DNA from: Escherichia phage SonjaBuckley_Bas74
DNA length: 43,096 bases
Sequence record: PQ850627.1
Reading direction: 5' to 3' (one strand)
In this document: positions 3,315 through 43,001 of the stretch, piece by piece
Layout: the number at the start of each line of letters is the position of its first letter
How positions within the stretch are numbered: the first letter of the stretch is position 1
Notes under the pieces: generated by a model
What the model saw: the letters and a program-made list of their open reading frames with translations, nothing else
Databases searched by the model: none
What the model was told of the DNA's origin: nothing
Made by a program: the position numbers and the translations under genes

Positions 3315-3336
3315 AGCCCCGAAAGGGGCTTTCTTA
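3315..3336 (+). terminator. intrinsic terminator after portal gene
   Basis: AGCCCC-GAAA-GGGGCT hairpin followed by TTCTT. Confidence 0.6.
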
Positions 3337-3373
3337 TAGTATGCTATTAACTTTAGCGCCACAGGGTTGATCT

Positions 3374-4881: not shown

Positions 4882-4908
4882 AAGGCCCCATTATGGGGCC
4901 TTAGTTTT
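4882..4908. terminator. bidirectional intrinsic terminator
   Basis: GGCCCCA-TTA-TGGGGCC hairpin with A-run upstream and T-run downstream, between convergent genes. Confidence 0.65.
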
Positions 4909-5111
4909 CAACGGAATCTTGTGTTTAAATCCTGCTCATGGACAACCCTCAGAACAGTGTCATAATCCCCGTATCTTCCAGGTTCAAATATATCTAATGC
5001 CTTGTAAGCAGACATTGCGTCAGGGAAAACCTGCAGAACCTTTTTAACCCGGCACAAGTCACCGTCGAACTCTTCATCGAACTCTTGAACTACTTCGCAA
5101 ATTGCATACAT
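4908..5111 (-). CDS. hypothetical protein (antisense moron, 67 aa)
   Basis: ATG with strong SD AGGAGGTG 5 nt upstream; own promoter TTGCAC-N17-TACTAT at 5139-5167; terminator hairpin at its 3' end. Confidence 0.55.
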   Translation of the reverse strand: MYAICEVVQEFDEEFDGDLCRVKKVLQVFPDAMSAYKALDIFEPGRYGDYDTVLRVVHEQDLNTRFR

Positions 5112-5138
5112 TTTTCACCTCCTGTTTAAGTTAACTGA

Positions 5139-5167
5139 ATAGTACCCTATTATATTGGGGTGTGCAA
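5139..5167 (-). promoter_or_regulatory. sigma70-type promoter TTGCAC-N17-TACTAT for moron 4908-5111
   Basis: Minus-strand reading TTGCACACCCCAATATAATAGGGTACTAT; 31-bp core identical to copy at 13662-13692. Confidence 0.55.
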
Positions 5168-5218
5168 ACTATTTATTTACGTATTCCAGTTATTCCTCGA
5201 ATTGTAAATGTTGGAATA

Positions 5219-5234
5219 AACTATTCGAATAGTT
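5219..5234. promoter_or_regulatory. perfect 16-bp palindrome AACTATTCGAATAGTT (operator candidate) abutting TTGACT
   Basis: Exact inverted repeat; half-site ACTATTC recurs in several promoters of this genome; overlaps a TTGACT -35-like hexamer at 5233-5238. Confidence 0.45.
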
Positions 5235-5441
5235 GACTTTTCACTAAAAATATGATAAGCTCCACCTGAGCTTGTGAAGTATGAACAAGCGACCGCGGCG
5301 CGGGCAGGTAACGGAGCGGGACGTAAGTCCTGAGTGCAGTTACGCTGACGCGTTCGGAAGGGCCATACTCTATTGCTTGTGTAAAAAGTAACTGGTTTAC
5401 TGAGATTACGCCGTTTCTATGTTTAAATGATAAGGACTAGC

Positions 5442-5468
5442 GCCCCGCTTTATGGCGGGGCTTTACTT
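5442..5468 (+). terminator. terminator-like hairpin upstream of spanin genes
   Basis: GCCCCGC-TTTATG-GCGGGGC followed by TTTACTT. Confidence 0.5.
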
Positions 5469-5485
5469 ATCGAGAAAGGGGAAAC

Positions 5486-5872
5486 ATGAATCTTAAAGCA
5501 ACTGTCGTAGCAGGAGCATGTTTCATCATCCTGGTTTACGCACACGGCATCTACCAGTATCGCAGCGGATGGAACGAAGGCCGGGCTAATCTCGTTTCGC
5601 AGCAACAGCAGAAAGCACAGGCTGAGTTAGCGAAGAAAACACAACGGCAGCAGCAGGATGAATCGAAGGCCGCCGCCGCTGACAACGAAGGCAAGACGAA
5701 ATCAGAGGTGATTACCCGTGAAGTCGTTAAGTACATTAAAACGCCTGGTCGCAGCGTGTGCACTTTTGACCCTGAGCGCGTGCAGCTCAAGTCCCGCGCC
5801 GTCGCCAACGCCAATTCCATCCCCGGATACGACGATGATGCAGCCGCCGTGCAAACTGGCGCAGCCAAGTAG
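5486..5872 (+). CDS. i-spanin (Rz-like)
   Basis: N-terminal TMD ATVVAGACFIILVYAHGIY followed by Q/K/E-rich coiled-coil region; contains an overlapping +1 frame lipoprotein ORF. Confidence 0.65.
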   Translation: MNLKATVVAGACFIILVYAHGIYQYRSGWNEGRANLVSQQQQKAQAELAKKTQRQQQDESKAAAADNEGKTKSEVITREVVKYIKTPGRSVCTFDPERVQLKSRAVANANSIPGYDDDAAAVQTGAAK

Positions 5873-12019: not shown

Positions 12020-12045
12020 AAGGCCCCGAAAGGGGCCTTTTTTAT
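12020..12045. terminator. bidirectional intrinsic terminator
   Basis: AAGGCCCC-GAAA-GGGGCCTT followed by TTTTTT; between convergent major tail gene and moron operon. Confidence 0.7.
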
Positions 12046-12275
12046 TACTCATCAATGTTACTCCTGTACTCCCGTAACTTTTCCAGACTTTCAATTGCTT
12101 CCGCTAAGTCGGTTCCGGTGTCCTTGTGTCCACGTAAACCCATGCACAATAGCTTCTTCAATGCGTGCTGTAACGCCGGGTCGCGGATGTCGAAAGCGCG
12201 GAGCACATCATAAACGTCTACTGTCATAGTGCTGCCGTGAGTATTTGTCATTGTGCGGTTGTATTTTGAAGTCAT
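12045..12275 (-). CDS. hypothetical protein (moron operon, 76 aa)
   Basis: Start overlaps stop of upstream gene (ATGA); ends at bidirectional terminator. Confidence 0.5.
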   Translation of the reverse strand: MTSKYNRTMTNTHGSTMTVDVYDVLRAFDIRDPALQHALKKLLCMGLRGHKDTGTDLAEAIESLEKLREYRSNIDE

Positions 12276-13402
12276 CCCAGCATCTCCGGTGAAATAGTTA
12301 AACGTGCGACCTCGCCATATTCGGCGCTATAAGTAATTACGTTTGCGCTACGCCCAGACATCCATCCGCCGCGCGAGGCGTAGGCGTCTTTCGCCGCTAA
12401 GGTGCGGTGTTGCTCAACAATCATGTTACGGCTTTCTACAATCTTCTGGTGGTGCAGATGGCCTACGTGGGCGTAGCTGTAAACACTCTCGCCGAACGCT
12501 TTACGGAACTTGGCAATCATAACCGGTTCGATAGCGTCGAATCGTGCTTTATGCCCGTGATGGAAGAACAGCGTCGTTTTGCCGTGTTGCACCATCTTAT
12601 AAACATCCGGCGACGTATCGACGAATACACGAGGCTCGTTGTCGTACAGTGTGCTGAACATCTCCGCCAGCCAAATCATTCCGCTTTCGTCGTGGTTCCC
12701 TTGCACTATAAGCAAGCGAACATTTTTATGCTTAACCAGTGCCATATCTACAACACGGCGCACCATACGAATCATGTAGCGAACAAGTTTTTGGTAGCGA
12801 GTGTCCGCGTCAAGGGCGTGACCGCTTGCTGGCGTAACGGCAACCAGACTATCGAAGTGCGCGAAGTCACCTAACAGGTTAATAACTCCAGTTCCTGCAT
12901 CCGGTGCTTTCTGAAACGCCGCGTCGAACCAGCGGGAGAACAGGTCTTCCGCAATCTTCATGTCCCAGTCGTCGCCGCTCTCGTCGGCCCAGGCCAGCAT
13001 ACCGAGATGAAAATCAGATACCGTGTAAAGATTGAGTAGCTTGCCGTCGCGTTTGGCGCGTGCTGCTTTAACAGGGGCGACTGGTGTAATCTCTGATTTC
13101 ATTCCTTCGATTACGGCTTTCATCAACTCGACCTGACGTTCGGCATCGGTGTCTGTCTTAACCCATTGCAACTTAGTGTTGCCGAACTCGTCCACAAGTG
13201 ACGACGTTCCTTTAATCTTGTAGCCATCTGGCACAAGGTGACTAACGTCACGTCCGTGGCCTACGCCTTTCTTAGCCAGCTTCGCTTTACGGATACGAAT
13301 AACGCGGTCTGAGATGCCGTATTTACGGGCGATGTCTACATTCTTCATCCCGGCGTTCAATTCTTCCTGTAACTGTTCGTCGGTTATTTTCTTCTGGGCC
13401 AT
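12272..13402 (-). CDS. metallophosphoesterase (calcineurin/Mre11-SbcD-like) with N-terminal HTH
   Basis: Motifs SDFHLG, LLGDFAHFD, VQGNHDE, FFHHGHKA, VGHLHH match the phosphoesterase motif series; N-terminal KNVDIARKYGISDRVIRIRKAKL is HTH-like; GAGGAAG SD. Confidence 0.65.
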   Translation of the reverse strand: MAQKKITDEQLQEELNAGMKNVDIARKYGISDRVIRIRKAKLAKKGVGHGRDVSHLVPDGYKIKGTSSLVDEFGNTKLQWVKTDTDAERQVELMKAVIEGMKSEITPVAPVKAARAKRDGKLLNLYTVSDFHLGMLAWADESGDDWDMKIAEDLFSRWFDAAFQKAPDAGTGVINLLGDFAHFDSLVAVTPASGHALDADTRYQKLVRYMIRMVRRVVDMALVKHKNVRLLIVQGNHDESGMIWLAEMFSTLYDNEPRVFVDTSPDVYKMVQHGKTTLFFHHGHKARFDAIEPVMIAKFRKAFGESVYSYAHVGHLHHQKIVESRNMIVEQHRTLAAKDAYASRGGWMSGRSANVITYSAEYGEVARLTISPEMLG

Positions 13403-13441: not shown

Positions 13442-13633
13442 TCACTTCTCGTTAACATTCGAGTTGCAGGCCCAGATTAAAATAAATACCCACGGCAGCA
13501 GAACCCAACCAAGAAACAGATTAGCCATGAATATCGCTAATTTCGCTTTATGGTTGCGGAAGTATGCAACCAAGAAAGGTGCGAAATAGGCGAGCAGTGC
13601 AAACAGAATTAAGGAAACTGGTAAACTTGACAT
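13442..13633 (-). CDS. superinfection immunity-like small membrane protein
   Basis: Likely start at second ATG (AAGGGG SD); sequence YFAPFLVAYFRNHKAKLAIFMANLFLGWVLLPWVFILIWA resembles the Imm superinfection-immunity family pattern; two predicted TMDs. Confidence 0.55.
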   Translation of the reverse strand: MSSLPVSLILFALLAYFAPFLVAYFRNHKAKLAIFMANLFLGWVLLPWVFILIWACNSNVNEK

Positions 13634-13663
13634 TTTAAACCCCTTCATTGTTGGTGTAAGCGA

Positions 13664-13692
13664 ATAGTACCCTATTATATTGGGGTGTGCAA
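13664..13692 (-). promoter_or_regulatory. sigma70-type promoter TTGCAC-N17-TACTAT for Imm-phosphoesterase moron operon
   Basis: Identical 31-bp sequence to 5137-5167; located 16 nt upstream of ORF start at 13648. Confidence 0.55.
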
Positions 13693-13799
13693 GTAATGTG
13701 ATAGAATAATTTTGCGCCTAGTGTCGCACACGAAAAGCGGGTGGTTCCCGTCTGGCGCGTCAATCTTAACCTGTAACCTCTTAACCAAAGGATTAAAGA

Positions 13800-14216
13800 A
13801 TGAAACTTTCTGATTTTTATTTCGAAGAGAAAGCGCTGGTAGGCAAGAAGATGCCGATTCTCCTGCCGAATGGCGAAGACTCCGGTGAGTGGCTTAACGT
13901 TGTAAGCCCGGATGCGGATGCCGCCGTTAAAGCGGGGCGTGCTTTCATTATCGCGTACCGTCGCGGACTGGCGCGTTTCGAAGAACTGGAAAAAGCTGCC
14001 AAAGAATCCGGCGACTATACTGAATATAACCTGGCGGTTAACGAACTGGCCGAAGACCTCAACCGGCAACTTGCAGCAGAAGTAGTAAACGGCTGGAGCT
14101 TTGACGAGCCTTTCTCTAAGGAAGCGTTTAGTAAATTGCTCGACCAGTTCAAGGCATTAGGCACACAAGTAGCGGCGTTCCATAACGCCGAGCGCAAAGC
14201 ATTACAGGAAAAGTAG
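13800..14216 (+). CDS. tail assembly chaperone (gpG-like)
   Basis: 138 aa acidic ORF directly upstream of tape measure; -1 frame is open across its 3' end. Confidence 0.55.
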   Translation: MKLSDFYFEEKALVGKKMPILLPNGEDSGEWLNVVSPDADAAVKAGRAFIIAYRRGLARFEELEKAAKESGDYTEYNLAVNELAEDLNRQLAAEVVNGWSFDEPFSKEAFSKLLDQFKALGTQVAAFHNAERKALQEK

Positions 14217-25466: not shown

Positions 25467-26253
25467 TTACGGCCCCTATGAACGCCTTTATAAATTCAGC
25501 GGCTACTTGCGGGACGATAGCATTGCCGTAACCGCGCAATCGTCCCACTCTGGCGGGTACCCCATTAGCCAGCGGGAATGCGCCGGGTTCAACTGGCCTG
25601 AATTTTCCATCCCGGCATCCGAGCCAGTCAGCATCTGACCAGAACCCGTTAGGCGGATTGGCTGTGTCAGAGATGCCTCTGTTTGCAGATTGTGGCCCCC
25701 GTTCCTGCCCTGATGGCCTGCTCCCGCCGAGTTGTTCGCACACGGTGTTGGCCAGTTGCTGCGCTCCGAAGAACAATCGATTCCTTTTGTGCGGTGCGCC
25801 GACGCTACAAGCTGGGAGTACGGCAAACCCGACGGCGTAGTCTTCTCTTTCCAGGTGAGTTTGTAAATCGCACATCCACGATTTTGCAATTGCTGCCGCA
25901 ACCTGCTCCCCAAAGATGACTGGAGGGTGGCACTCGCTGATGAGGTCGAGGAGCACAGGTGCGAGGTGTCTCTGGTCGAACTGTCCGAGTTGCTTTCCTG
26001 CCGTGCTAAACGGTTGGCAAGGCGGACTTCCCGTCCATATAGGCGTATCTTCAGAAACTCCCGCAAGTCTGAGCGCGAGAGGCCAGCCGCCGATACCCGC
26101 GAAAAAATGACACTGGGTGAACCCGTCAAGGTCTTCTGGCTTAACTTCGGTAATGCTTCTTTCATCTACAACTCCAAAAGGTATGTGACCCTGTTTTATC
26201 AACTCACGCAGCCACGCGGCTGCGCCTTTATCCCATTCGTTGTAATAGTTCAT
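25459..26253 (-). CDS. DNA (cytosine-5)-methyltransferase, short form
   Basis: FAGIGG (motif I), PPCQPFS (catalytic PCQ motif IV), [16 protein letters not shown]; only 264 aa. Confidence 0.6.
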
Positions 26254-26441
26254 TTCGCCACCAGAACTAACTCTTTACGCCCGAACGCCGTAACGTTACC
26301 GGTTACGTCTTCAATAACCAGTTTACCGTTCGACTCGACGAACACCGTATCAACGGCAACAGGACGACGGGTCTTAACGTTGAAAATCATGTCGCCTGGT
26401 ACGATGTCACGTGCTGGTTTGCGGTCATATTCGTGTTTCAT
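26250..26441 (-). CDS. hypothetical protein (63 aa)
   Basis: ATG with AAGGAA SD; preceded by TTGACA-N17-TATAGT promoter; ATGA coupling to methyltransferase. Confidence 0.5.
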   Translation of the reverse strand: MKHEYDRKPARDIVPGDMIFNVKTRRPVAVDTVFVESNGKLVIEDVTGNVTAFGRKELVLVAK

Positions 26442-26757
26442 TTCTAAATTCCTTATATTGTTGGGGTATGTGCTTACTATAATAGTCTGCTATTAGGGTG
26501 TCAATCTGTTTTATCGAACCAACGACAAAAACATTTGCGCCACGTTTACGTATACGCTCGTGTTCCCGTAGCTGGTGCGGGTCTGGCTTAGTGTTTTCGT
26601 CTTTCTTCACCTCGACGAACCAGACGATGCCGCCGGGTAGAATTGCCAGCAGGTCAGGAGCGCCTGAACGTCCTTCGTAGGAAAGTTTACGAACGAGGCC
26701 ACCAATGGCCTCGAATCGCTCTTTTGCGTATTTCTGGATGCGGCCCTCTTTAGTCAT
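26425..26757 (-). CDS. VRR-NUC domain nuclease
   Basis: GAPDLLAIL...VWFVEVKK...HQLREHERIRKRGANVFVV matches the VRR-NUC pattern (PD-(D/E)XK-type core). Confidence 0.6.
   Translation of the reverse strand: MTKEGRIQKYAKERFEAIGGLVRKLSYEGRSGAPDLLAILPGGIVWFVEVKKDENTKPDPHQLREHERIRKRGANVFVVGSIKQIDTLIADYYSKHIPQQYKEFRNETRI
26476..26504 (-). promoter_or_regulatory. promoter TTGACA-N17-TATAGT (internal to 3' end of VRR-NUC gene)
   Basis: Minus-strand reading TTGACACCCTAATAGCAGACTATTATAGT; perfect -35, near-consensus -10, 17-bp spacer. Confidence 0.5.
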
Positions 26758-30122: not shown

Positions 30123-30749
30123 TTAGCGGCGGCGACGTTCGCGGCGCGGTGCTTCATCTTCTTCGTCGTCTTCCAGGTCATTGACGCTCGCAGCGACTTT
30201 AGAACCGCCGAACGCTTTGCCTTCGCCAACGTATTTAATCGCCAGCAGGTTAACGCCGAGGACTTTGTATTTCTGGCTGAACCAGATTTCAACGCTTACG
30301 TTAGCTAAGCATCCGCTGTAAACCTGTTCACCTTCAATCTGTTCGCCGTCTACGTTGAAGTCCTGCTCTACCTGAGTCTCACCTTTTTTAGAGGTTACAA
30401 TCAGCGGCTGTTTCTGTGCCTTCGCTTTGAAGTAGAAGCCTTCCGGGAAGTCTTCAAACGGATTGTCGCGCTCGGCAATGTCTTTAATCGCGCATTTATC
30501 CATGTGCTTACCTTCACCGTAGTTGGACTTCATCCATTTCTCGGCAGCGGCTGCGCCTAACGCTTCTTCAACTACAGCGTAAACGGTGTCGTAGAGTGCA
30601 TCGATTTGAGCATGGTCAGACGGCAGGATGATAGTCGCGCTGTACTGGCCTTTAGTGATTGAGCCATCATCGTTTTCACGGTCTTTTTCACGTTCAAATA
30701 CGTTAACCCAAGCAGTGTTTACTTTACGCAGATTCAGTTTAATACCCAT
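30123..30749 (-). CDS. single-stranded DNA-binding protein (DUF2815-like) with acidic C-terminal tail
   Basis: 208 aa; C-terminus DLEDDEEDEAPRRERRRR; located between DUF2800-like nuclease and polymerase; own promoter and terminator. Confidence 0.55.
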   Translation of the reverse strand: MGIKLNLRKVNTAWVNVFEREKDRENDDGSITKGQYSATIILPSDHAQIDALYDTVYAVVEEALGAAAAEKWMKSNYGEGKHMDKCAIKDIAERDNPFEDFPEGFYFKAKAQKQPLIVTSKKGETQVEQDFNVDGEQIEGEQVYSGCLANVSVEIWFSQKYKVLGVNLLAIKYVGEGKAFGGSKVAASVNDLEDDEEDEAPRRERRRR

Positions 30750-30808
30750 CTTAATTTCTCGCTTTTAAGTTTCGTTTACTCCGGGAAGCTGCCCGGTCAG
30801 TGATTAGA

Positions 30809-30837
30809 ACTATAATAGCTAACTATTCAGGTGTCAA
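30809..30837 (-). promoter_or_regulatory. promoter TTGACA-N17-TATAGT upstream of SSB gene
   Basis: Minus-strand reading TTGACACCTGAATAGTTAGCTATTATAGT; spacer contains AATAG-N5-CTATT inverted repeat. Confidence 0.55.
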
Positions 30838-31026: not shown

Positions 31027-32264
31027 TCCAAATCCTCCTCTGTTACCTGATTCCACTCAGGACGTTTGTCGTCTGCCGTTGCGACACATGGTGCGCCTGG
31101 CTTACGGGTAATGAAGTCTTTCAGTTCTTCTTCCGGTATGACTTTAACAGCTTCGGTAGGTGACATGAGCACTTCTTTAGTCAGCTTGTCGCCGTAGAGT
31201 TCTGTTACTTTCTCCGCGTCTTTCCATGCACGATTACCCGGGCGGCCTTCAACCAACTTGTAACCATGAACTTTCTTACCTGAATGCAACGCGGCCGCCA
31301 TAGCTTTCTCAACCTTGTCGATGTGCTGGCGCAACAGCGGCAACTTCTCATACTCAGCTACGAGTTGCTCCGGCGTCAGTTCCAGCACAAAGTCGTCTTC
31401 CAGTTCTTCCGCCAGTACAGAATTAACCGTCTTTGTACGCGCAGCGCATTGTTCAGAGAACCGGCACCACTGACAACCATCTACCGATGGCTTGAAGTCC
31501 GACGCTTTCAGGTTCTTCTTGCCACGGAAATACGCATCAAGCGCTAACAGCGCGCGTTTCTGTGCGAACTTAGCGAACAGTTCCAGTCCTTCAACCGGGA
31601 TGTCCCACTCTGTCGCGCCCCCAGCGTAAGGCTGGAAGATGACCAGACGAACGGTTGTTATGTTATAACGTCTCTTGAGTCGACGATAAACACCGAGAGC
31701 GTAAAGCATAAGCTGCTTGTTTTCTTTCGCTTCGACGCGATGCCGCCCGGTTTTCAGGTCGCCGATAATGAGCATGTGCTCGTCGGTGTTTGCCAGTTCC
31801 TGGACAGCAACGAGGTCAGCGGTTCCGAACGTCTCAACGCCTTCATACCCCGGATGCAATACCTCAGTAAGATTGACACGCATTTCCAGCTTGGCGTAAG
31901 TCGCTACGTCTATAATCGCTTTGCAGTAGTCGGTGTACTTGCGCACCTGCTCAATCATGTCCGCCGTAATCAGTACCGCGCCTTTCATCGGGCTGATTAG
32001 CGCCTTAATCTGACCTTTGCCTTCATCCAGTACGTAAGCGCCGACTTCACGCTCCAACGGCAACGCAGTGCCGCGTATATAGGCGTTGAGATGGACCTCA
32101 GCTATGGTGTGCATGGCGGTCCCCGTAACGGCAGCTTTACCTGACGTGTTAGGAATATCTTTTTCACAGGCCAGTGATGCACTGCACGTCAGCCACTTCT
32201 TAGCACCTGACGGCGACAATAAGGCGTGCACATCATTATTGCCACCGCGTTCTTTTAGAATCAT
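31023..32264 (-). CDS. PD-(D/E)XK nuclease, Cas4/RecB-like (DUF2800-like)
   Basis: N-terminal LLSPSGAKKWLTCSAS; C-terminal cysteines CQWCRFSEQC typical of Cas4-like Fe-S nucleases; start likely ATG at 32264 (GGGAGA SD), ORF track GTG at 32279. Confidence 0.6.
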   Translation of the reverse strand: MILKERGGNNDVHALLSPSGAKKWLTCSASLACEKDIPNTSGKAAVTGTAMHTIAEVHLNAYIRGTALPLEREVGAYVLDEGKGQIKALISPMKGAVLITADMIEQVRKYTDYCKAIIDVATYAKLEMRVNLTEVLHPGYEGVETFGTADLVAVQELANTDEHMLIIGDLKTGRHRVEAKENKQLMLYALGVYRRLKRRYNITTVRLVIFQPYAGGATEWDIPVEGLELFAKFAQKRALLALDAYFRGKKNLKASDFKPSVDGCQWCRFSEQCAARTKTVNSVLAEELEDDFVLELTPEQLVAEYEKLPLLRQHIDKVEKAMAAALHSGKKVHGYKLVEGRPGNRAWKDAEKVTELYGDKLTKEVLMSPTEAVKVIPEEELKDFITRKPGAPCVATADDKRPEWNQVTEEDLE

Positions 32265-32576: not shown

Positions 32577-33077
32577 TTATTCTTCTTCGAAATACTTGTT
32601 CTTGATTGCTGTCAGGCGTTCCAGGTATTCAGCCAGGTCTTCGTCTTTAATCGCTGCAATCTTCATTTTCTTACCTGTGAACTCTTCCAGCAGTTCATCA
32701 GAATCATCGCACGCGGCATCGCTCGGACCTTCGTTAATTGCATCGTCGATAGCCTGAATCTGGTCGCGCAGAGACTTATAGTCTACTTCTTCTTTCTCTT
32801 CTTCCGGCTCTGGCGTCGTTTCCTCTACTTTAGCTTTACGCGGCTTGCGTTTTGGCTTCTCTTCCTCCGCCGGTTTAGTGTCAACTACGTCTTCACCTTC
32901 AACCGGGATTTCTTTTGTTGCTTCTTCAGCGCACTCAGCTACCGCTTCTTTGGTGTACGATACCGTCTCTACTTCCAGCGGCGTGGCAACCTGAACAACT
33001 TGTTTCGCACTGTTCGCGGCAATCAGTTCGTGCGCAACTACGAAACGTTCCAGTAATACTAAGAATTTCTCTAACAT
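32577..33077 (-). CDS. highly acidic hypothetical protein, first gene of minus-strand early operon
   Basis: GAGGAGAG SD; 166 aa with long D/E-rich segments and a short basic patch KPKRKPRKAK; immediately downstream of TTGACA-N17-TATAGT promoter. Confidence 0.5.
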   Translation of the reverse strand: MLEKFLVLLERFVVAHELIAANSAKQVVQVATPLEVETVSYTKEAVAECAEEATKEIPVEGEDVVDTKPAEEEKPKRKPRKAKVEETTPEPEEEKEEVDYKSLRDQIQAIDDAINEGPSDAACDDSDELLEEFTGKKMKIAAIKDEDLAEYLERLTAIKNKYFEEE

Positions 33078-33108: not shown

Positions 33109-33137
33109 ACTATAATAGCGAACTATTCACATGTCAA
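33109..33137 (-). promoter_or_regulatory. promoter TTGACA-N17-TATAGT for minus-strand early operon
   Basis: Minus-strand reading TTGACATGTGAATAGTTCGCTATTATAGT; differs at three positions from the 30809-30837 copy. Confidence 0.55.
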
Positions 33138-33176
33138 TGGGCTTTTCTAAAATAATTAATATGGTACTATTCACAT
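33122..33176 (+). promoter_or_regulatory. pair of 11-bp direct repeats ACTATTCACAT spaced 44 bp (operator candidates) with weak plus promoter for HTH gene
   Basis: Exact repeats at 33122-33132 and 33166-33176; second copy overlaps TACTAT -10-like hexamer 32 nt upstream of the regulator ATG. Confidence 0.4.
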
Positions 33177-33201
33177 ATCAACTGACTAAGGAGTAATTGA
33201 C

Positions 33202-33417
33202 ATGCAACCATCTGAACTAGGCATCCGTGTAGAACAACGCCGCAAAGAACTCGGCATCTCCCAGCGCCGTTTGGCGGCCCTGACCGGCGTTTCCCAGGGC
33301 GCGATTAACCAACTGGCACTTGGAGTAACTCAGGACGTCCGCCCGGCAACGCTGTTCAAACTGGCGGAAGTTCTGGAAGTAGACGCCAAGTGGCTGGCGT
33401 TAGGTGAAGGGGCTTAA
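33202..33417 (+). CDS. XRE/Cro-type helix-turn-helix transcriptional regulator
   Basis: 71 aa; LGISQRRLAALTGVSQGAINQL is a classic HTH; AAGGAG SD; lone plus-strand gene convergent with primase, followed by terminator. Confidence 0.7.
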   Translation: MQPSELGIRVEQRRKELGISQRRLAALTGVSQGAINQLALGVTQDVRPATLFKLAEVLEVDAKWLALGEGA

Positions 33418-35851: not shown

Positions 35852-36142
35852 TTACCGTTTAGCCAACCCTTCCAGCAAATTTTTATACTCTTCAAAATAT
35901 TCCTCGACCAAATCATCGCCGAAATAGAAGTCGATATACTCGAGATTATCTCTTACGTTAAGCGATGCCGACATGGTGCTTAGTTGGCGTAAGCTAATTA
36001 GCTTCATTTCTGTTTCTACGCAGAAAGGCCGGTAGGTATCAAGATGGCAAGAGATATTGAAGCATAAAGCGAACTCTCCGGCCACGGAGTGAACCATATA
36101 CACTTCGTTTTCTGCTTTATTGTGGAAAATTACGCCTTTCAT
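35852..36142 (-). CDS. hypothetical protein (96 aa)
   Basis: ATG with AAGGAGA SD; ATGA coupling to upstream HTH gene. Confidence 0.5.
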   Translation of the reverse strand: MKGVIFHNKAENEVYMVHSVAGEFALCFNISCHLDTYRPFCVETEMKLISLRQLSTMSASLNVRDNLEYIDFYFGDDLVEEYFEEYKNLLEGLAKR

Positions 36143-36321
36143 TTCACGTTCTCCTTAATCCATGCTTCGACTTTATTACGGTCAAATGTTCCCGGTAAAC
36201 GGCGGCCCATAACCTTAATACAGCAGTCAGGGAATTTGCCGCTGCGCAACCAGTTATTAATGGTCTGACGTGTCACCCCGATACGCTCGGCTACCTCATT
36301 CTGTGTCATGTAATGTTGCAT
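36139..36321 (-). CDS. AlpA/excisionase-type HTH DNA-binding protein
   Basis: Likely ATG start at 36321 with AGGGGAT SD (ORF track GTG at 36435); MTQNEVAERIGVTRQTINNWLRSGKFP matches the HTH_17 pattern; first gene downstream of TTGCTT-N17-TATACT promoter. Confidence 0.55.
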   Translation of the reverse strand: MQHYMTQNEVAERIGVTRQTINNWLRSGKFPDCCIKVMGRRLPGTFDRNKVEAWIKENVK

Positions 36322-36418: not shown

Positions 36419-36448
36419 TTGAAAGTTCTTGACACATGTTTGTATAAT
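36419..36448 (+). promoter_or_regulatory. promoter TTGAAA-N18-TATAAT driving a non-coding transcript
   Basis: Consensus -10 TATAAT at 36443-36448; divergent from the minus promoter at 36353-36381. Confidence 0.45.
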
Positions 36449-36455
36449 GGTTTTG

Positions 36456-36675
36456 GGACTTGTATATATTACGGAGTTGACGAACCCTCCCCGAGGGATT
36501 CGTCAACCCCTCCCAGACAGCTGAGATGCTTGCCTTGTGGTTTAAGGATAAGTGTATCTAAATCTCATTTAAAGAAGTAACCCGCTGAAATATCTACTGT
36601 TTCTTAATGTGCCGTAGATTCGCAACCGTAAAAATGTAACGATTATTGGGCAGGCTTAGGGCCTGCCCTTTAGTT
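36456..36675 (+). ncRNA. candidate small non-coding RNA (about 220 nt)
   Basis: Promoter upstream, strong 5' hairpin at 36476-36507, intrinsic terminator at 36648-36675, no ORF with SD (only an 11-codon ATG frame). Confidence 0.3.
36648..36675 (+). terminator. intrinsic terminator closing the candidate sRNA
   Basis: GGGCAGGC-TTAGG-GCCTGCCC followed by TTTAGTT. Confidence 0.6.
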
Positions 36676-36740
36676 ACCAAGTAATAAGAATAAAGGCACA
36701 ACAGTTTCGAAAGAATCACAACGGCAACGTAACTATTCTC

Positions 36741-36769
36741 TTGCACACCCCAACATAATAGGATACTAT
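36741..36769 (+). promoter_or_regulatory. sigma70-type promoter TTGCAC-N17-TACTAT for plus-strand small-gene cluster
   Basis: TTGCACACCCCAACATAATAGGATACTAT; 29 of 31 positions identical to the moron promoter repeat. Confidence 0.55.
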
Positions 36770-36803
36770 TCACTTATCGAAACGAGACAGAGGAGTGAAG
36801 GTT

Positions 36804-36989
36804 ATGTTTAAGAAGGGTCAGTTGGTTCGTAATAGATTGAGCGGCGATTTATTTACAGTAATAGAATCAAATCTAATGTGGTTTGGTTTTGTGGAGGTTA
36901 ATAGCGTAGCGGGTTTCGGTAAAGGGTTACTCCGTAAATGTGATTTAGAACTCATCGGCAACAATTTTAAATTCAAAGGGGCGAAGTGA
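36804..36989 (+). CDS. hypothetical protein (61 aa)
   Basis: ATG with AGGAGTGAAGG SD (ORF track GTG at 36795); first gene downstream of TTGCAC-N17-TACTAT promoter. Confidence 0.45.
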   Translation: MFKKGQLVRNRLSGDLFTVIESNLMWFGFVEVNSVAGFGKGLLRKCDLELIGNNFKFKGAK

Positions 36990-38179: not shown

Positions 38180-38208
38180 TTGCACACTGTGATAGAATAG
38201 GCTACTAT
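38180..38208 (+). promoter_or_regulatory. sigma70-type promoter TTGCAC-N17-TACTAT
   Basis: TTGCACACTGTGATAGAATAGGCTACTAT followed by leader ACAAACGAGAGGAGAG and ATG at 38240. Confidence 0.5.
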
Positions 38209-38239
38209 TCATTTACACAAACGAGAGGAGAGACAGAAG

Positions 38240-38368
38240 ATGTATAAGTATCTGACGGTAGAAAAACTGGAACAGATTTATGCGGAGTTGCGAGTTTGCT
38301 GCGTATGCAGCGGCAACTACAAACTTGTTTACGGAGAACTGGAGGTAGACGATGCTCCTGGAATGTAA
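38240..38368 (+). CDS. hypothetical small protein (42 aa)
   Basis: ATG with GAGAGGAGAG leader downstream of TTGCAC-N17-TACTAT promoter; CCVCSG cysteine cluster. Confidence 0.35.
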   Translation: MYKYLTVEKLEQIYAELRVCCVCSGNYKLVYGELEVDDAPGM

Positions 38369-42818: not shown

Positions 42819-43000
42819 AAAAGTTAACTATCTACTGGAAAACAGGGGCTACGTCAGAACTCGATGTTTTCAGCGTAACGCAGTGTGAAAAGTTCTGGTA
42901 TGCCGAAACATTCAACGGTGAAGTGAGAATACCAATCGCACTGGTATACGGCGGCGATATAACAGAATACCAATCGCACTGGTATACGGCGGCGATATAA
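42815..43000 (+). CDS. hypothetical protein whose 3' end runs through a 38-bp tandem duplication
   Basis: ATGA coupling; stop codon lies in the second repeat copy; followed by intrinsic terminator. Confidence 0.4.
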   Translation: MKKLTIYWKTGATSELDVFSVTQCEKFWYAETFNGEVRIPIALVYGGDITEYQSHWYTAAI

Positions 43001-43001
43001 C
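42926..43001 (+). repeat. perfect 38-bp tandem duplication (2 copies)
   Basis: AGAATACCAATCGCACTGGTATACGGCGGCGATATAAC at 42926-42963 and again at 42964-43001, followed by partial third start AGAATAA. Confidence 0.9.

What the first reader, a model, noticed from the sequence alone, without database searches (positions are those of the whole stretch)
5137..5167. A 31-bp promoter sequence occurs twice identically and drives both antisense morons, with near-copies ahead of plus-strand small-gene clusters
GAATAGTACCCTATTATATTGGGGTGTGCAA is found at 5137-5167 and 13662-13692 (plus-strand text). On the minus strand both read TTGCAC-N17-TACTAT and sit directly upstream of the two antisense units (4908-5111 and the Imm-phosphoesterase operon). 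A copy with two mismatches in plus orientation lies at 36741-36771, and a related version at 38180-38208. Identical promoters imply co-regulation of the morons with the first plus-strand genes, and hint at modular acquisition or duplication.
Basis: seen in the sequence. Interest (0 to 1): 0.6.

Follow-up and report, generated by a model that had tools for sequence, protein, structure and literature searches.

The report
Conserved operator-bearing phage promoter family
The repeated 31-bp sequence is real and is best read as one class of host-type promoters, shared by E. coli and Salmonella phages of this subfamily and already listed as predicted promoters in published genome papers; what is not in those papers is that each copy carries a small palindrome that looks like a repressor binding site.

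Summary
The window is a complete ~43 kb Kagunavirus genome (Guernseyvirinae), 99.5-99.9% identical over a 2-kb segment to E. coli phages KMB35 and Bas71.

**Observation:** confirmed. There are two exact 31-mers, a 2-mismatch copy in the opposite orientation and a fourth related copy. All read TTGCAC-N17-TACTAT and sit 21-28 nt upstream of a start codon with a ribosome-binding site.

**What it is:** four members of a family of 7-8 sigma-70-type promoters that share the 14-bp palindrome AATAG-N4-CTATT. The other members are near-consensus TTGACA-N17-TATAGT promoters in the replication module.
- The palindrome is the most over-represented palindrome of that geometry in the Kagunavirus genomes (7-8 copies) and the Jerseyvirus genome (5) examined. 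It is absent from the one Cornellvirus genome and four Cornellvirus-like contig segments examined.
- Its centre sits at -12.5, -15.5 or -18.5, always inside the core promoter.
- Its left arm, in the spacer, is as invariant as the -10.

I infer an operator for a phage-encoded helix-turn-helix repressor. No binding or transcription start has been shown.

**Not supported:** recent duplication or acquisition of promoter plus gene as a unit. The promoters are old backbone, the cargo behind them varies, and there is no concerted evolution.

**Prior reports:** the motif is already listed as a predicted promoter by the PHIRE repeat-finding program in two Kagunavirus genome papers.

**Verdict:** ordinary and largely known; interest is low to moderate.

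The parts
5137..5167 (-). Promoter copy 1 (family 1): -35 TTGCAC 5167..5162, 17-bp spacer, -10 TACTAT 5144..5139, palindrome AATAG-N4-CTATT 5138-5151, predicted +1 A at 5132
   Evidence: conserved in Kagunavirus contigs ahead of varying cargo
4908..5111 (-). Cargo of antisense slot 1: 67-aa ORF of unknown function with a Shine-Dalgarno sequence (AGGAGG)
   Evidence: only a weak match to an unknown-function PHROG; replaced by other ORFs in relatives
4882..4902 (.). Hairpin terminator ending antisense slot 1 on the minus strand
   Evidence: related to the terminators at 12020 and 23884 (I5 and I7)
13662..13692 (-). Promoter copy 2 (family 1), identical 31-mer: -35 13692..13687, -10 13669..13664, palindrome 13663-13676, predicted +1 A at 13657
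   Evidence: TTGCAN-N17-TA(C/G)TAT kept in most distant relatives at this slot
13442..13648 (-). Superinfection-immunity (Imm) membrane protein; the true start is probably the second ATG at 13633, behind the Shine-Dalgarno sequence AAGGGG
   Evidence: Pfam Imm_superinfect E 9e-13; PHROG 1039 E 1e-22; sequence
12272..13402 (-). Calcineurin-like phosphoesterase / 'DNA repair exonuclease' (376 aa)
   Evidence: PHROG 704 E 1e-166; weak Metallophos matches below Pfam cut-off
12045..12275 (-). 76-aa ORF, last gene of antisense slot 2
   Evidence: PHROG 2452, unknown function
12020..12039 (.). Bidirectional hairpin terminator ending antisense slot 2 and the upstream late (+) transcript
   Evidence: listed on both strands
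36741..36771 (+). Promoter copy 3 (family 1, 2 mismatches): -35 36741-36746, -10 36764-36769, palindrome 36757-36770, predicted +1 36776; first ORF 36804-36989
   Evidence: slot alignment of 29 unique sequences
38180..38210 (+). Promoter copy 4 (family 1, different spacer): -35 38180-38185, -10 38203-38208, palindrome 38196-38209, predicted +1 38215; first ORF 38240-38368
33109..33137 (-). Family 2 promoter TTGACA-N17-TATAGT with the palindrome (33114-33127) in the spacer; drives the 166-aa ORF 33077..32577
33152..33181 (-). Weaker tandem family 2-like promoter (TTGATA...) with a 1-mismatch palindrome at 33158-33171
30809..30837 (-). Family 2 promoter TTGACA-N17-TATAGT with palindrome 30814-30827; drives the Gp2.5-like ssDNA-binding gene 30749..30123
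   Evidence: annotation of Bas71
26476..26504 (-). Family 2 promoter TTGACA-N17-TATAGT with palindrome 26481-26494, inside the 3' end of the VRR-NUC gene; drives 26441..26250 and downstream genes
36139..36321 (-). Candidate regulator A: 60-aa HTH_17 (excisionase/MerR-like) protein, first gene of the leftward early operon
   Evidence: Pfam E 1.6e-8. 70-100% identical in all Kagunavirus and Jerseyvirus sequences examined; not found in the Cornellvirus genome or contig segments examined. Its own promoter has no palindrome.
33202..33417 (+). Candidate regulator B: 71-aa Cro/CI-type HTH_3 protein, divergent from the double-palindrome region 33109-33181
   Evidence: Pfam E 4e-13; closest solved homologues are 434 Cro and 434 repressor; sequence
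13680..13758 (+). Putative plus-strand restart promoter (TTGGGG-N16-TG-A-TAGAAT, 13680-13707) overlapping promoter copy 2 back to back, followed by a conserved structured leader (13714-13758) ahead of the tail assembly chaperone gene
   Evidence: sequence; TAGAAT conserved in most relatives; 16 pairs, 5 with compensatory changes

Best explanation
The 31-mer is a host sigma-70 promoter: -35 TTGCAC, 17-bp spacer, -10 TACTAT, start about 7 nt downstream at a conserved A. It belongs to a promoter family that is part of the conserved backbone of the Kagunavirus and Jerseyvirus phages.

Four 'family 1' copies head the two antisense accessory cassettes and two rightward clusters of small genes. Three to four 'family 2' promoters (TTGACA-N17-TATAGT) head replication-module operons. 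All carry the 14-bp palindrome AATAG-N4-CTATT inside the core promoter.

The most likely mechanism is that host RNA polymerase fires these promoters on infection, and a dimeric phage-encoded helix-turn-helix protein then binds the palindrome and occludes the -10/spacer, shutting the whole set down together. This would be a Cro-like turn-down of early and middle transcription. The candidate proteins are the 60-aa HTH_17 early protein and the 71-aa 434-Cro-like HTH_3 protein.

**Shown:** the repeats, their geometry, their conservation and their gene context.

**Inferred:** promoter activity, the start sites, binding to the palindrome, repression, and which protein binds.
For: **Non-random repeats**
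- The four TTGCAC-N17-TACTAT sites are far beyond chance.
- AATAG-N4-CTATT occurs 7 times exactly, and 13 times with up to one mismatch against 0.99 expected.
- All 7 exact sites lie in promoter-like contexts that point at genes.

**Two discrete geometries**
- Across all fetched sequences two geometries dominate the exact-palindrome sites: 89 unique contexts with the -10 starting 7 nt into the palindrome (TTGCAC/TACTAT), and 84 with the -10 starting at nt 13 (TTGAC[A/G]-N17/18-TATAGT).
- In SETP3 the slot-2 promoter has a spacer segment 3 nt shorter. It uses TATTAT 3 nt further on, which keeps the 17-bp spacing. This compensatory shift argues that -35/-10 spacing is what selection preserves.

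**Conservation**
- Most distant relatives at slot 2 keep TTGCA(C/T/A)-N17-TA(C/G)TAT or CAGTAT, even where the palindrome drifts.
- In an alignment of slot 3 anchored only on the downstream ORF (29 unique Kagunavirus and Jerseyvirus sequences), the invariant blocks are CTTG (-35), ATAATAG (left arm, in the spacer) and TACTATT (-10 and right arm), with partial conservation around the Shine-Dalgarno region.
- An invariant spacer block is not expected of a plain sigma-70 promoter.

**A phage-specified rather than host factor**
- AATAG-N4-CTATT is the top 5-N4-5 palindrome in the Kagunavirus genomes (7-8 copies) and in the one Jerseyvirus genome (5).
- It is absent from the Cornellvirus genome. 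That genome infects the same host genus as Jerseyvirus and carries TATTA-N6-TAATA at the equivalent cassette promoters.

**Occlusion rather than activation**
- The palindrome centre lies at -12.5, -15.5 or -18.5, that is, on different faces of the helix but always inside the core promoter.
- Family 2 promoters are 11/12 matches to consensus and should need no activator.

**Candidate proteins**
- HTH_17 co-occurs with the palindrome (present in Kagunavirus and Jerseyvirus, not found in Cornellvirus).
- Its likely homologue in phage K1B4 is reported as an early gene (PMC12645636); the match to K1B4 gene 008 is my inference from gene order.
- HTH_3 is 434-Cro-like. From my own knowledge, 434 Cro and repressor bind 14-bp ACAA-N6-TTGT operators, the same geometry as AATA-N6-TATT. 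Its gene abuts two palindrome copies.

**Cassette anatomy:** each antisense unit ends at a hairpin terminator.
Against: - No transcription start, reporter assay or binding experiment exists for any member of the subfamily in the library searched.
- By hexamer match alone, family 1 is only 7/12 to consensus and was not picked up by the generic scan.
- The right arm of the palindrome overlaps the -10, so part of its conservation is explained by the promoter itself.
- The palindrome also brings -10-like hexamers (TATAAT, TATTAT) on both strands, which could matter in their own right.
- The link between regulator and palindrome rests on one phylogenetic contrast (Cornellvirus against the rest).
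- The recognition helix of HTH_3 does not track the palindrome: SQGAINQ in Kagunavirus, SQSLITH in Jerseyvirus, TQSAISH in Cornellvirus.
- The only RNA-seq study of a Kagunavirus (K1B4, coarse sampling at 5-120 min) classes the Imm gene as peaking late. This does not fit a simple early-on, then-off pattern (PMC12645636).
Confidence: 0.6

Rival explanations
1. These are plain, unregulated sigma-70 promoters. The palindrome has no binding protein and is a by-product of AT-rich -10-like hexamers, or of common descent of the promoters from one ancestral sequence.
For: The right arm coincides with the -10. The element contains extra -10-like hexamers such as TATAAT and TATTAT. No regulator has been shown to bind. 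A family of promoters descended from one ancestor would share sequence.
Against: - The left arm lies in the spacer, which is normally unconstrained, yet it is invariant across 29 unique Kagunavirus and Jerseyvirus sequences.
- It never varies between copies 1 and 2 in the ten genomes and contigs compared.
- The same palindrome sits at three different registers relative to the -10 in families 1 and 2 and in SETP3. A pure -10 by-product would not give this.
- Cornellvirus has a different palindrome at the equivalent promoters.
Confidence: 0.2
2. These are phage-specific promoters read by a phage-encoded RNA polymerase or sigma factor, or by a host polymerase reprogrammed by a phage factor. This is how the PHIRE-based genome papers label the motif.
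For: PHIRE found the motif as a repeated 'phage promoter' in Golestan (PMC7203180, Table S4) and in fBC-Eco01. The fBC-Eco01 paper ascribes it to a phage RNA polymerase (PMC9825357). The conserved TTGCAC departs from the consensus -35.
Against: - No RNA polymerase or sigma gene is annotated in the near-identical Bas71 genome.
- No such domain was found in the unknown ORFs scanned.
- No unassigned ORF is large enough for a T7- or N4-type polymerase.
- -35/-10 hexamers at 17 bp, with a compensatory register shift, fit sigma-70.
- Family 2 members are near-perfect sigma-70 consensus promoters.
Confidence: 0.06
3. The identical 31-mers mark a recent duplication, or morons acquired as ready-made promoter-gene-terminator modules.
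For: The two copies match at 31 of 31 positions in this genome. The cassettes have their own promoter and terminator and lower G+C for the small cargo genes: 0.43 and 0.42 against 0.51 for the genome.
Against: - The flanks diverge immediately outside the 31-mer.
- The two copies differ by 0-3 nt in other Kagunavirus genomes and contigs, and within-genome similarity equals between-genome similarity.
- Copy 2 is kept in the same slot in Kagunavirus and Jerseyvirus, and the same slots hold promoter-headed antisense cassettes in Cornellvirus.
- The cargo changes behind an unchanged promoter.
- SETP3 lacks both cassette and promoter at slot 1.
Confidence: 0.05
4. The conserved sequences serve mainly as recombination anchors, that is, shared boundary sequences for exchanging accessory cassettes between co-infecting phages. 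Promoter activity would be secondary.
For: Copy 1 is the constant left boundary of a hypervariable cargo slot. The terminators at the other boundary are also a repeat family (D2 and I5-I12).
Against: Four of the 7-8 palindrome-bearing sites head conserved, non-variable replication genes. Orientation and distance to the start codons are those of promoters. A 31-bp anchor is short for homologous exchange. This reading is compatible with, rather than an alternative to, promoter function.
Confidence: 0.08

Closest known systems
PHIRE-predicted 'conserved/phage-specific promoters' of Kagunavirus phages vB_EcoS-Golestan (PMC7203180, Suppl. Table S4) and fBC-Eco01 (PMC9825357)
   Same: This is the same element. 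Golestan lists seven 20-mers (TAATAGGGTACTATTCATTA, TAATAGCGTACTATTCACTT, TAATAGCGAACTATTCACAT, TAATATGGTACTATTCACAT, TAATAGGATACTATTCACTT, GAATAGGCTACTATTCATTT, TTATAGTATGCTATTAACTT). They fall in slots that match this window by sequence and gene order, including both antisense units. fBC-Eco01 gives seven sites with the consensus tgAATAGTa-ccTATTat-T.
   Different: Those papers report only a repeated 20-mer found by software. In the passages and table I read they do not mention the -35/-10 reading or the palindrome, and one paper ascribes the motif to a phage RNA polymerase that these phages do not encode. PHIRE also treats family 2 sites as the same orientation, although they drive transcription the opposite way.
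Cro/CI operators of lambdoid phages, especially the 14-bp operators of phage 434 (ACAA-N6-TTGT, from my own knowledge) overlapping PR/PRM and PL
   Same: A 14-bp dyad (AATA-N6-TATT) lies inside core promoters at several sites in the genome. The phage encodes a 71-aa protein whose best solved homologues are 434 Cro and 434 repressor. Two dyads 44 bp apart sit between that gene and a divergent operon.
   Different: This is a virulent phage with no integrase or lysogeny module annotated. The sites are dispersed singly over 7-8 promoters rather than as tripartite OL/OR clusters. Binding is untested, and the recognition helix of the Cro-like protein does not co-vary with the dyad.
Morons of lambdoid phages, e.g. 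HK97 and HK022 (from my own knowledge): an autonomous promoter-gene-terminator unit inserted between genes of a late operon
   Same: Both antisense units have their own promoter and terminator. They sit between conserved structural genes, carry accessory functions (superinfection immunity), vary between relatives, and their small genes have below-average G+C.
   Different: Here the promoter and the slot are conserved backbone shared with early and replication genes, and only the cargo turns over. They are antisense to the late operon, which appears to restart from its own promoter on the far side.

Membership tests
Sigma-70 (housekeeping) bacterial promoter | -35-like and -10-like hexamers with A at -11 and T at -7, separated by 17 +/- 1 bp | tested here: met
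   TTGCAC-N17-TACTAT in all four copies. This is 7/12 to consensus with both key -10 bases present. Family 2 is 11/12. Spacing is preserved by a compensatory register shift in SETP3 and in most distant relatives.
Sigma-70 (housekeeping) bacterial promoter | Placed upstream of, and oriented toward, a transcription unit with a short leader | tested here: met
   Predicted leaders are 21-28 nt, each followed by a Shine-Dalgarno sequence and ATG. Terminators precede or follow each unit.
Sigma-70 (housekeeping) bacterial promoter | A mapped transcription start, or activity with sigma-70 holoenzyme | not testable with these tools
   No 5'-end mapping for any Guernseyvirinae phage was found. The K1B4 RNA-seq is gene-level only.
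Repressor operator (Cro/CI-type dyad) | Dyad-symmetric site of about 14-17 bp, over-represented and confined to regulatory regions | tested here: met
   Seven exact AATAG-N4-CTATT sites, all in promoter-like contexts, plus a 1-mismatch copy at the eighth promoter. It is the top palindrome of its geometry in five genomes.
Repressor operator (Cro/CI-type dyad) | Overlaps the core promoter so that a bound protein excludes RNA polymerase | tested here: met
   Dyad centre at -12.5 (family 1), -15.5 (SETP3 slot 2) and -18.5 (family 2), derived.
Repressor operator (Cro/CI-type dyad) | Conservation of dyad positions that the promoter itself does not need | tested here: met
   The left arm ATAATAG in the spacer is invariant in 29 unique sequences and never varies between copies 1 and 2 in the ten genomes and contigs compared.
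Repressor operator (Cro/CI-type dyad) | A cognate DNA-binding protein whose presence or specificity tracks the site | tested here: inconclusive
   HTH_17 is present with the dyad in Kagunavirus and Jerseyvirus and was not found in the Cornellvirus sequences examined. That amounts to a single contrast. HTH_3 is 434-Cro-like, but its recognition helix does not track the dyad.
Repressor operator (Cro/CI-type dyad) | Demonstrated binding and repression | not testable with these tools
   Needs a gel-shift or footprinting assay, or reporter assays.
Phage-RNA-polymerase promoter (the label given by PHIRE-based papers) | The phage encodes its own RNA polymerase or sigma factor | tested here: not met
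   None is annotated in the near-identical Bas71 genome. No such domain was found in the unknown ORFs. No ORF of suitable size is unassigned.
Moron | Own promoter and own terminator, inserted between genes of a conserved operon | tested here: met
   Promoters at 5167..5137 and 13692..13662; terminators at 4902..4882 and 12039..12020. The flanking genes are head and tail genes.
Moron | Presence or absence, or changing content, among close relatives | tested here: met
   At least eight different first ORFs occur in slot 1. Slot 2 variously carries HNH, Rha/Ant, acid phosphatase or other genes. SETP3 has an empty slot 1.
Moron | Promoter travels with the gene as one acquired module | tested here: not met
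   The promoter stays constant while the cargo changes. The same promoter family heads core replication and early genes. There is no excess similarity between copies within a genome.

The most novel reading that the evidence does not exclude
The 14-bp dyad is the operator of a small phage-encoded helix-turn-helix protein (HTH_17 or the 434-Cro-like HTH_3). That protein would run a genome-wide switch in a strictly virulent siphovirus, shutting down 7-8 early and middle promoters together.

At slot 2 the antisense promoter overlaps, back to back, a conserved extended -10 promoter for the tail operon, and the dyad centre lies near -44.5 of that promoter. The same bound protein could therefore turn the accessory cassette off and release or stimulate restart of late tail transcription. 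That would be a lambda PR/PRM-like toggle embedded in a structural operon.
Probability: 0.3. Interest if true: 0.45.

Novelty: already known. Interest (0 to 1): 0.27.

Why it matters
As given, the finding re-discovers a promoter-like repeat that genome papers on sister phages already list, so it adds little on its own. The comparative work adds four points:

- The motif should be read as ordinary sigma-70 promoters, not phage-polymerase promoters as one published paper states.
- It defines a probable regulon of 7-8 promoters with an operator-like dyad. This gives a concrete, cheap experiment to find the temporal regulator of a widely used group of therapeutic E. coli and Salmonella phages: two small proteins and one 14-bp site.
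- The two antisense cassettes are fixed, insulated expression slots with exchangeable cargo. That is useful for annotating accessory and anti-defence genes, and for engineering payloads into these phages.
- Two conserved structured RNA elements next to the promoters, seen in passing, may be of more interest than the promoters themselves.

Tried and rejected
1. **Rfam and tRNA scans.** Nothing at gathering thresholds in the whole window; only a chance-level hit at 5200-5500; no tRNAs.
2. **Alternative promoter readings.**
   - The perfect TATAAT inside the spacer of copies 1-3 has no usable -35, except ATCACA at copy 2, and it is not conserved in distant relatives. Rejected as the general -10.
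   - Opposite-strand readings of the same sites have poor -35 hexamers.
3. **Two operator classes for two regulators** (AATA-N6-TATT for HTH_17, ATTA-N6-TAAT for HTH_3). ATTA-N6-TAAT has only one promoter-associated site in the window, at 30803; the others are in coding sequence. Not supported.
4. **Concerted evolution or gene conversion between copies 1 and 2.** Rejected.
5. **The 1-mismatch site at 3335-3348**, which Golestan lists as a promoter 'before ORF3'. It has no -35 on either strand and lies directly after a terminator. It is probably a relic or chance; in SETP3 an antisense cassette sits in this region.
6. **IMG/VR scan for AATAG-N4-CTATTATAGT.** Contigs with several copies were all about 24-45 kb, many of them already fetched here as Guernseyvirinae relatives. 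Single hits elsewhere cannot be told from chance.
7. **K1B4 RNA-seq supplements.** They hold host annotation, not per-gene phage profiles, so they were no help with timing.
8. **PSP2-22 (L005)** proved to be a chimeric 'UNVERIFIED_ORG' record and was discarded.
9. **Literature searches** for MB78 promoters, Jerseyvirinae promoters and the motif string itself gave nothing relevant.
10. **The minus-strand ORFs overlapping the promoters** (36594-36773 and 13635-14069). I regard both as spurious: one region is replaced by unrelated sequence in most relatives, and the other overlaps the tail chaperone gene.
Full report
**What the window is.** A 2-kb segment around the finding is 99.9% identical to Escherichia phage vB-Eco-KMB35 and 99.5% identical to LotteLoewe_Bas71. 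It matches some hundred Kagunavirus records and several hundred Salmonella Guernseyvirinae records at lower identity. Gene order matches Bas71 from the small terminase gene at position 1 to the end. The window is therefore a whole Kagunavirus genome. It has no tRNA genes and no Rfam family at gathering score.

**Checking the observation.**
- The 31-mer occurs exactly at 5137-5167 and 13662-13692. A 2-mismatch copy lies at 36741-36771 on the other strand. None of 100 shuffles gave any match.
- TTGCAC-N15-19-TACTAT occurs four times, always with a 17-bp spacer, against 0.01 expected. The fourth site is 38180-38208.
- Read in the promoter direction, each copy is followed by TTCAnTTA. If transcription starts 7 nt after the -10, the start falls on a conserved A: 5132 and 13657 on the minus strand, 36776 and 38215 on the plus strand.
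- The predicted leaders are 21-28 nt and end in a Shine-Dalgarno sequence and ATG.
- For the Imm gene, the second ATG (13633), behind AAGGGG, is the more likely start.
  - a 67-aa ORF of unknown function;
  - an Imm_superinfect protein (Pfam E 9e-13; PHROG 'immunity to superinfection' E 1e-22);
  - a PHROG-704 phosphoesterase/'DNA repair exonuclease' (E 1e-166);
  - a 76-aa ORF.
- Both units end at hairpin terminators, 4902..4882 and 12039..12020.

**The repeat is part of a larger family.**
- The repeat finder linked the core of the 31-mer to sites at 26475, 30808, 33108 and 33157.
- The common element is the dyad AATAG-N4-CTATT. It has seven exact copies, and 13 with up to one mismatch against 0.99 expected.
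- Four exact copies are the TTGCAC promoters ('family 1'). There the dyad spans -19 to -6, and its right arm supplies CTAT of the -10.
- The other three lie in the spacers of minus-strand promoters that match consensus at 11 of 12 positions: TTGACA-N17-TATAGT at 33137..33109, 30837..30809 and 26504..26476 ('family 2'). There the dyad spans -25 to -12.
- A weaker tandem promoter at 33181..33152 holds a 1-mismatch dyad.
- Family 2 promoters head the replication-module operons: the 166-aa ORF, the Gp2.5-like ssDNA-binding gene, and the methyltransferase/helicase block.

**Comparative evidence that these are promoters.**
- Exact dyad sites were pooled from four full Kagunavirus genomes including the window, one Jerseyvirus genome (SETP3) and about 135 IMG/VR contig segments (the one Cornellvirus genome contributes none). 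Two geometries dominate: 89 unique contexts of family 1 and 84 of family 2. Readings on the opposite strand have poor -35 hexamers.
- In SETP3 the slot-2 promoter reads TTGCAT-AACCGTT-AATAGTGTCCTATT-AT. The stretch between -35 and dyad is 3 nt shorter, and the -10 shifts to TATTAT, which keeps 17 bp.
- Contigs whose tail-chaperone protein is only 49-65% identical mostly keep TTGCA(C/T/A)-N17-TA(C/G)TAT or CAGTAT at slot 2, even where the dyad has drifted.
- SETP3's depositors annotated BPROM promoters at slot 2, before its own antisense ORF4, and in the early divergent region; a further promoter feature, without a stated method, coincides with the family 2 dyad site at 32244.

**Evidence that the dyad is more than promoter sequence.**
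- An alignment of slot 3 was anchored only on the downstream ORF and used 29 unique Kagunavirus and Jerseyvirus sequences. It shows invariant blocks at CTTG (-35), ATAATAG (left arm), TACTATT (right arm and -10) and part of the Shine-Dalgarno region, with variable sequence between them. The left arm lies in the spacer, which sigma-70 does not read base by base.
- Between copies 1 and 2 in the ten genomes and contigs compared, all differences fall in -35 positions 4-6, the spacer, or the 4-bp gap of the dyad. None falls in the arms.
- AATAG-N4-CTATT is the most frequent 5-N4-5 palindrome in every Kagunavirus genome examined (7-8 copies) and in SETP3 (5 copies, extended to TAATAG-N4-CTATTA). Cornellvirus vB_CECAV_044 has none, even allowing two mismatches.
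- Cornellvirus instead has TATTA-N6-TAATA over the -10 of its two antisense-cassette promoters and one small-gene promoter.
- Jerseyvirus and Cornellvirus both infect Salmonella, so the specificity looks phage-encoded rather than host-encoded.
- The dyad centre lies at -12.5, -15.5 or -18.5, on different helical faces. That fits steric repression better than activation, and family 2 promoters are too close to consensus to need an activator.

**Which protein might bind.** Two small helix-turn-helix proteins are encoded.
- *HTH_17* (36139-36321, minus strand; Pfam E 1.6e-8) is the first gene of the leftward early operon.
  - Its own promoter, TTGCTT-N17-TATACT, has no dyad.
  - It is 70-100% identical across 442 phage records, almost all E. 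coli or Salmonella Guernseyvirinae.
  - It was found in every Kagunavirus and Jerseyvirus genome or contig segment checked, and in none of the Cornellvirus-type ones.
  - By gene order it probably corresponds to K1B4 gene 008, the only annotated 'early' gene in the one published Kagunavirus RNA-seq study (PMC12645636). That correspondence is my inference.
- *HTH_3* (33202-33417, plus strand; Pfam E 4e-13) has 434 Cro and 434 repressor as its closest solved homologues (E 5e-6 to 1e-5).
  - From my own knowledge, those proteins bind 14-bp ACAA-N6-TTGT operators, the geometry of AATA-N6-TATT.
  - Its gene lies divergent from the two dyads at 33114 and 33158.
  - Against it, its recognition helix is more alike in Jerseyvirus and Cornellvirus than in Jerseyvirus and Kagunavirus, which is the opposite of the dyad pattern.
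- I cannot decide between the two. Neither has been tested.

**Duplication or acquisition?**
- Outside the 31 bp the flanks of copies 1 and 2 are unrelated.
- In the ten Kagunavirus genomes and contigs that hold both slots, the copies differ by 0-3 nt. The mean is 1.9 within a genome and 2.0 between genomes, so there is no sign of recent duplication or gene conversion.
- Behind an unchanged copy 1, at least eight unrelated first ORFs occur.
- Slot 2 cargo includes HNH endonucleases, a Rha/antirepressor protein, an acid phosphatase, or two unrelated ORFs.
- The cassettes have moron anatomy, and their small genes have low G+C (0.42-0.43 against 0.51). But the promoter belongs to the backbone and only the cargo turns over.

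**Prior reports.**
- The Golestan genome paper lists seven PHIRE 'conserved promoter sequences'. By sequence and gene order they are these sites, including both antisense slots (PMC7203180, Table S4).
- The fBC-Eco01 paper gives seven sites with consensus tgAATAGTa-ccTATTat-T and ascribes them to a phage-encoded RNA polymerase (PMC9825357).
- No such polymerase or sigma factor is annotated or detectable.
- No transcription start mapping was found for the subfamily.

**Surroundings.**
- *Slot 2.* The antisense promoter overlaps, back to back, a conserved plus-strand extended -10 (TG-A-TAGAAT, 13699-13707). The -35 candidate of that promoter (TTGGGG, 13680-13685) is the complement of the antisense promoter's spacer.
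  - A conserved structure follows immediately (13714-13758). It has 16 predicted pairs, 5 with compensatory changes, across Kagunavirus, Jerseyvirus, Cornellvirus and more distant contigs.
  - This looks like the restart point of tail-gene transcription after the bidirectional terminator at 12020-12039.
  - The dyad centre would lie near -44.5 of this promoter, which suggests, but does not show, a dual role.
- *Slot 1.* A separate promoter (TTGACT 5233-N17-TAAGCT with TG) precedes a structured RNA of about 100 nt (5264-5362). It has 30 predicted pairs, 7 with compensatory changes, and no Rfam match.
  - A paralogue of this RNA sits beside the HTH_17 gene in many other Kagunavirus contigs, but not in this window.

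**Verdict.** The promoter reading is well supported by comparison but unproven by experiment. The co-regulation idea is strengthened and widened by the dyad. The acquisition/duplication idea is not supported. The element is already in the literature as a predicted promoter motif, so novelty is low. The operator reading and the two neighbouring RNA structures are the parts worth an experiment.

Noticed in passing
window 13694-13802 (+), structure 13714-13758: A conserved structured element lies directly upstream of the tail assembly chaperone gene. An outer GCGCC/GGCGC stem encloses two hairpins, and a conserved extended -10 (TGATAGAAT, 13699-13707) precedes it. There are 16 predicted pairs, 5 with compensatory changes, across Kagunavirus, Jerseyvirus, Cornellvirus and more distant contigs. 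It may be the 5' end of a restarted tail-operon mRNA. No Rfam family matches.
   Followed up: partly
window 5233-5362 (+); paralogue e.g. L006 37399-37542: A candidate small structured RNA of about 100 nt sits behind a strong promoter (TTGACT-N17-TAAGCT with TG). It has 30 predicted pairs, 7 with compensatory changes, and no Rfam hit. Bas71 annotates a 36-aa ORF here. A copy 78-87% identical lies beside the HTH_17 gene in many other Kagunavirus contigs, but not in this window. SETP3 also has a copy at slot 1.
   Followed up: partly
window 36419-36668 (+): A near-consensus promoter (TTGAAA-N18-TATAAT) is followed by about 200 nt without a convincing ORF and then an intrinsic terminator (36648-36668). 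The first ~170 nt occur in only two of the fetched contigs (L042, L049). Most relatives carry the paralogue of the 5233 RNA at this place.
   Followed up: partly
window 42926-43001: A perfect 38-bp tandem duplication (not a multiple of 3) lies at the end of a small ORF. No other fetched genome or contig has the exact 38-mer, and two contigs carry a single copy of its first 20 nt. It is either a recent duplication or an assembly artefact.
   Followed up: partly
window 4908-5111 (-) and equivalents in L003, L008-L012, L015, L063: Antisense slot 1 is a hotspot of accessory-gene turnover. At least eight unrelated first ORFs follow the same promoter in different Kagunavirus genomes. Cornellvirus has a RusA-like gene in the same neighbourhood. 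None was characterised.
   Followed up: no
window 12272-13402 (-), N-terminal ~45 aa: By eye, the phosphoesterase has an N-terminal stretch that looks like a helix-turn-helix (…VDIARKYGISDRVIRIRKAK…). It also has a faint PHROG match to 'late transcriptional activator' (E 9e-4). It could be a third DNA-binding candidate.
   Followed up: no
window 3335-3348: A 1-mismatch copy of the dyad (TATAGTATGCTATT) lies directly after the portal-gene terminator, with no usable -35 on either strand. Golestan's PHIRE table lists it as a promoter. SETP3 has an antisense cassette (ORF4) in this region. It may be a relic of a third slot.
   Followed up: partly
window 30803-30816: The ssDNA-binding-gene promoter carries a second, overlapping dyad (ATTA-N6-TAAT) across its -10 and start region. 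It is conserved in Kagunavirus and Jerseyvirus, and its core resembles the Cornellvirus dyad.
   Followed up: no
window 36594-36773 (-) and 13635-14069 (-): These ORFs overlap promoter copies 3 and 2. The first is annotated as a hypothetical protein in Bas71 (Bas71_0055). Both look spurious: one is not conserved in relatives, and the other is antisense to the tail chaperone gene.
   Followed up: partly
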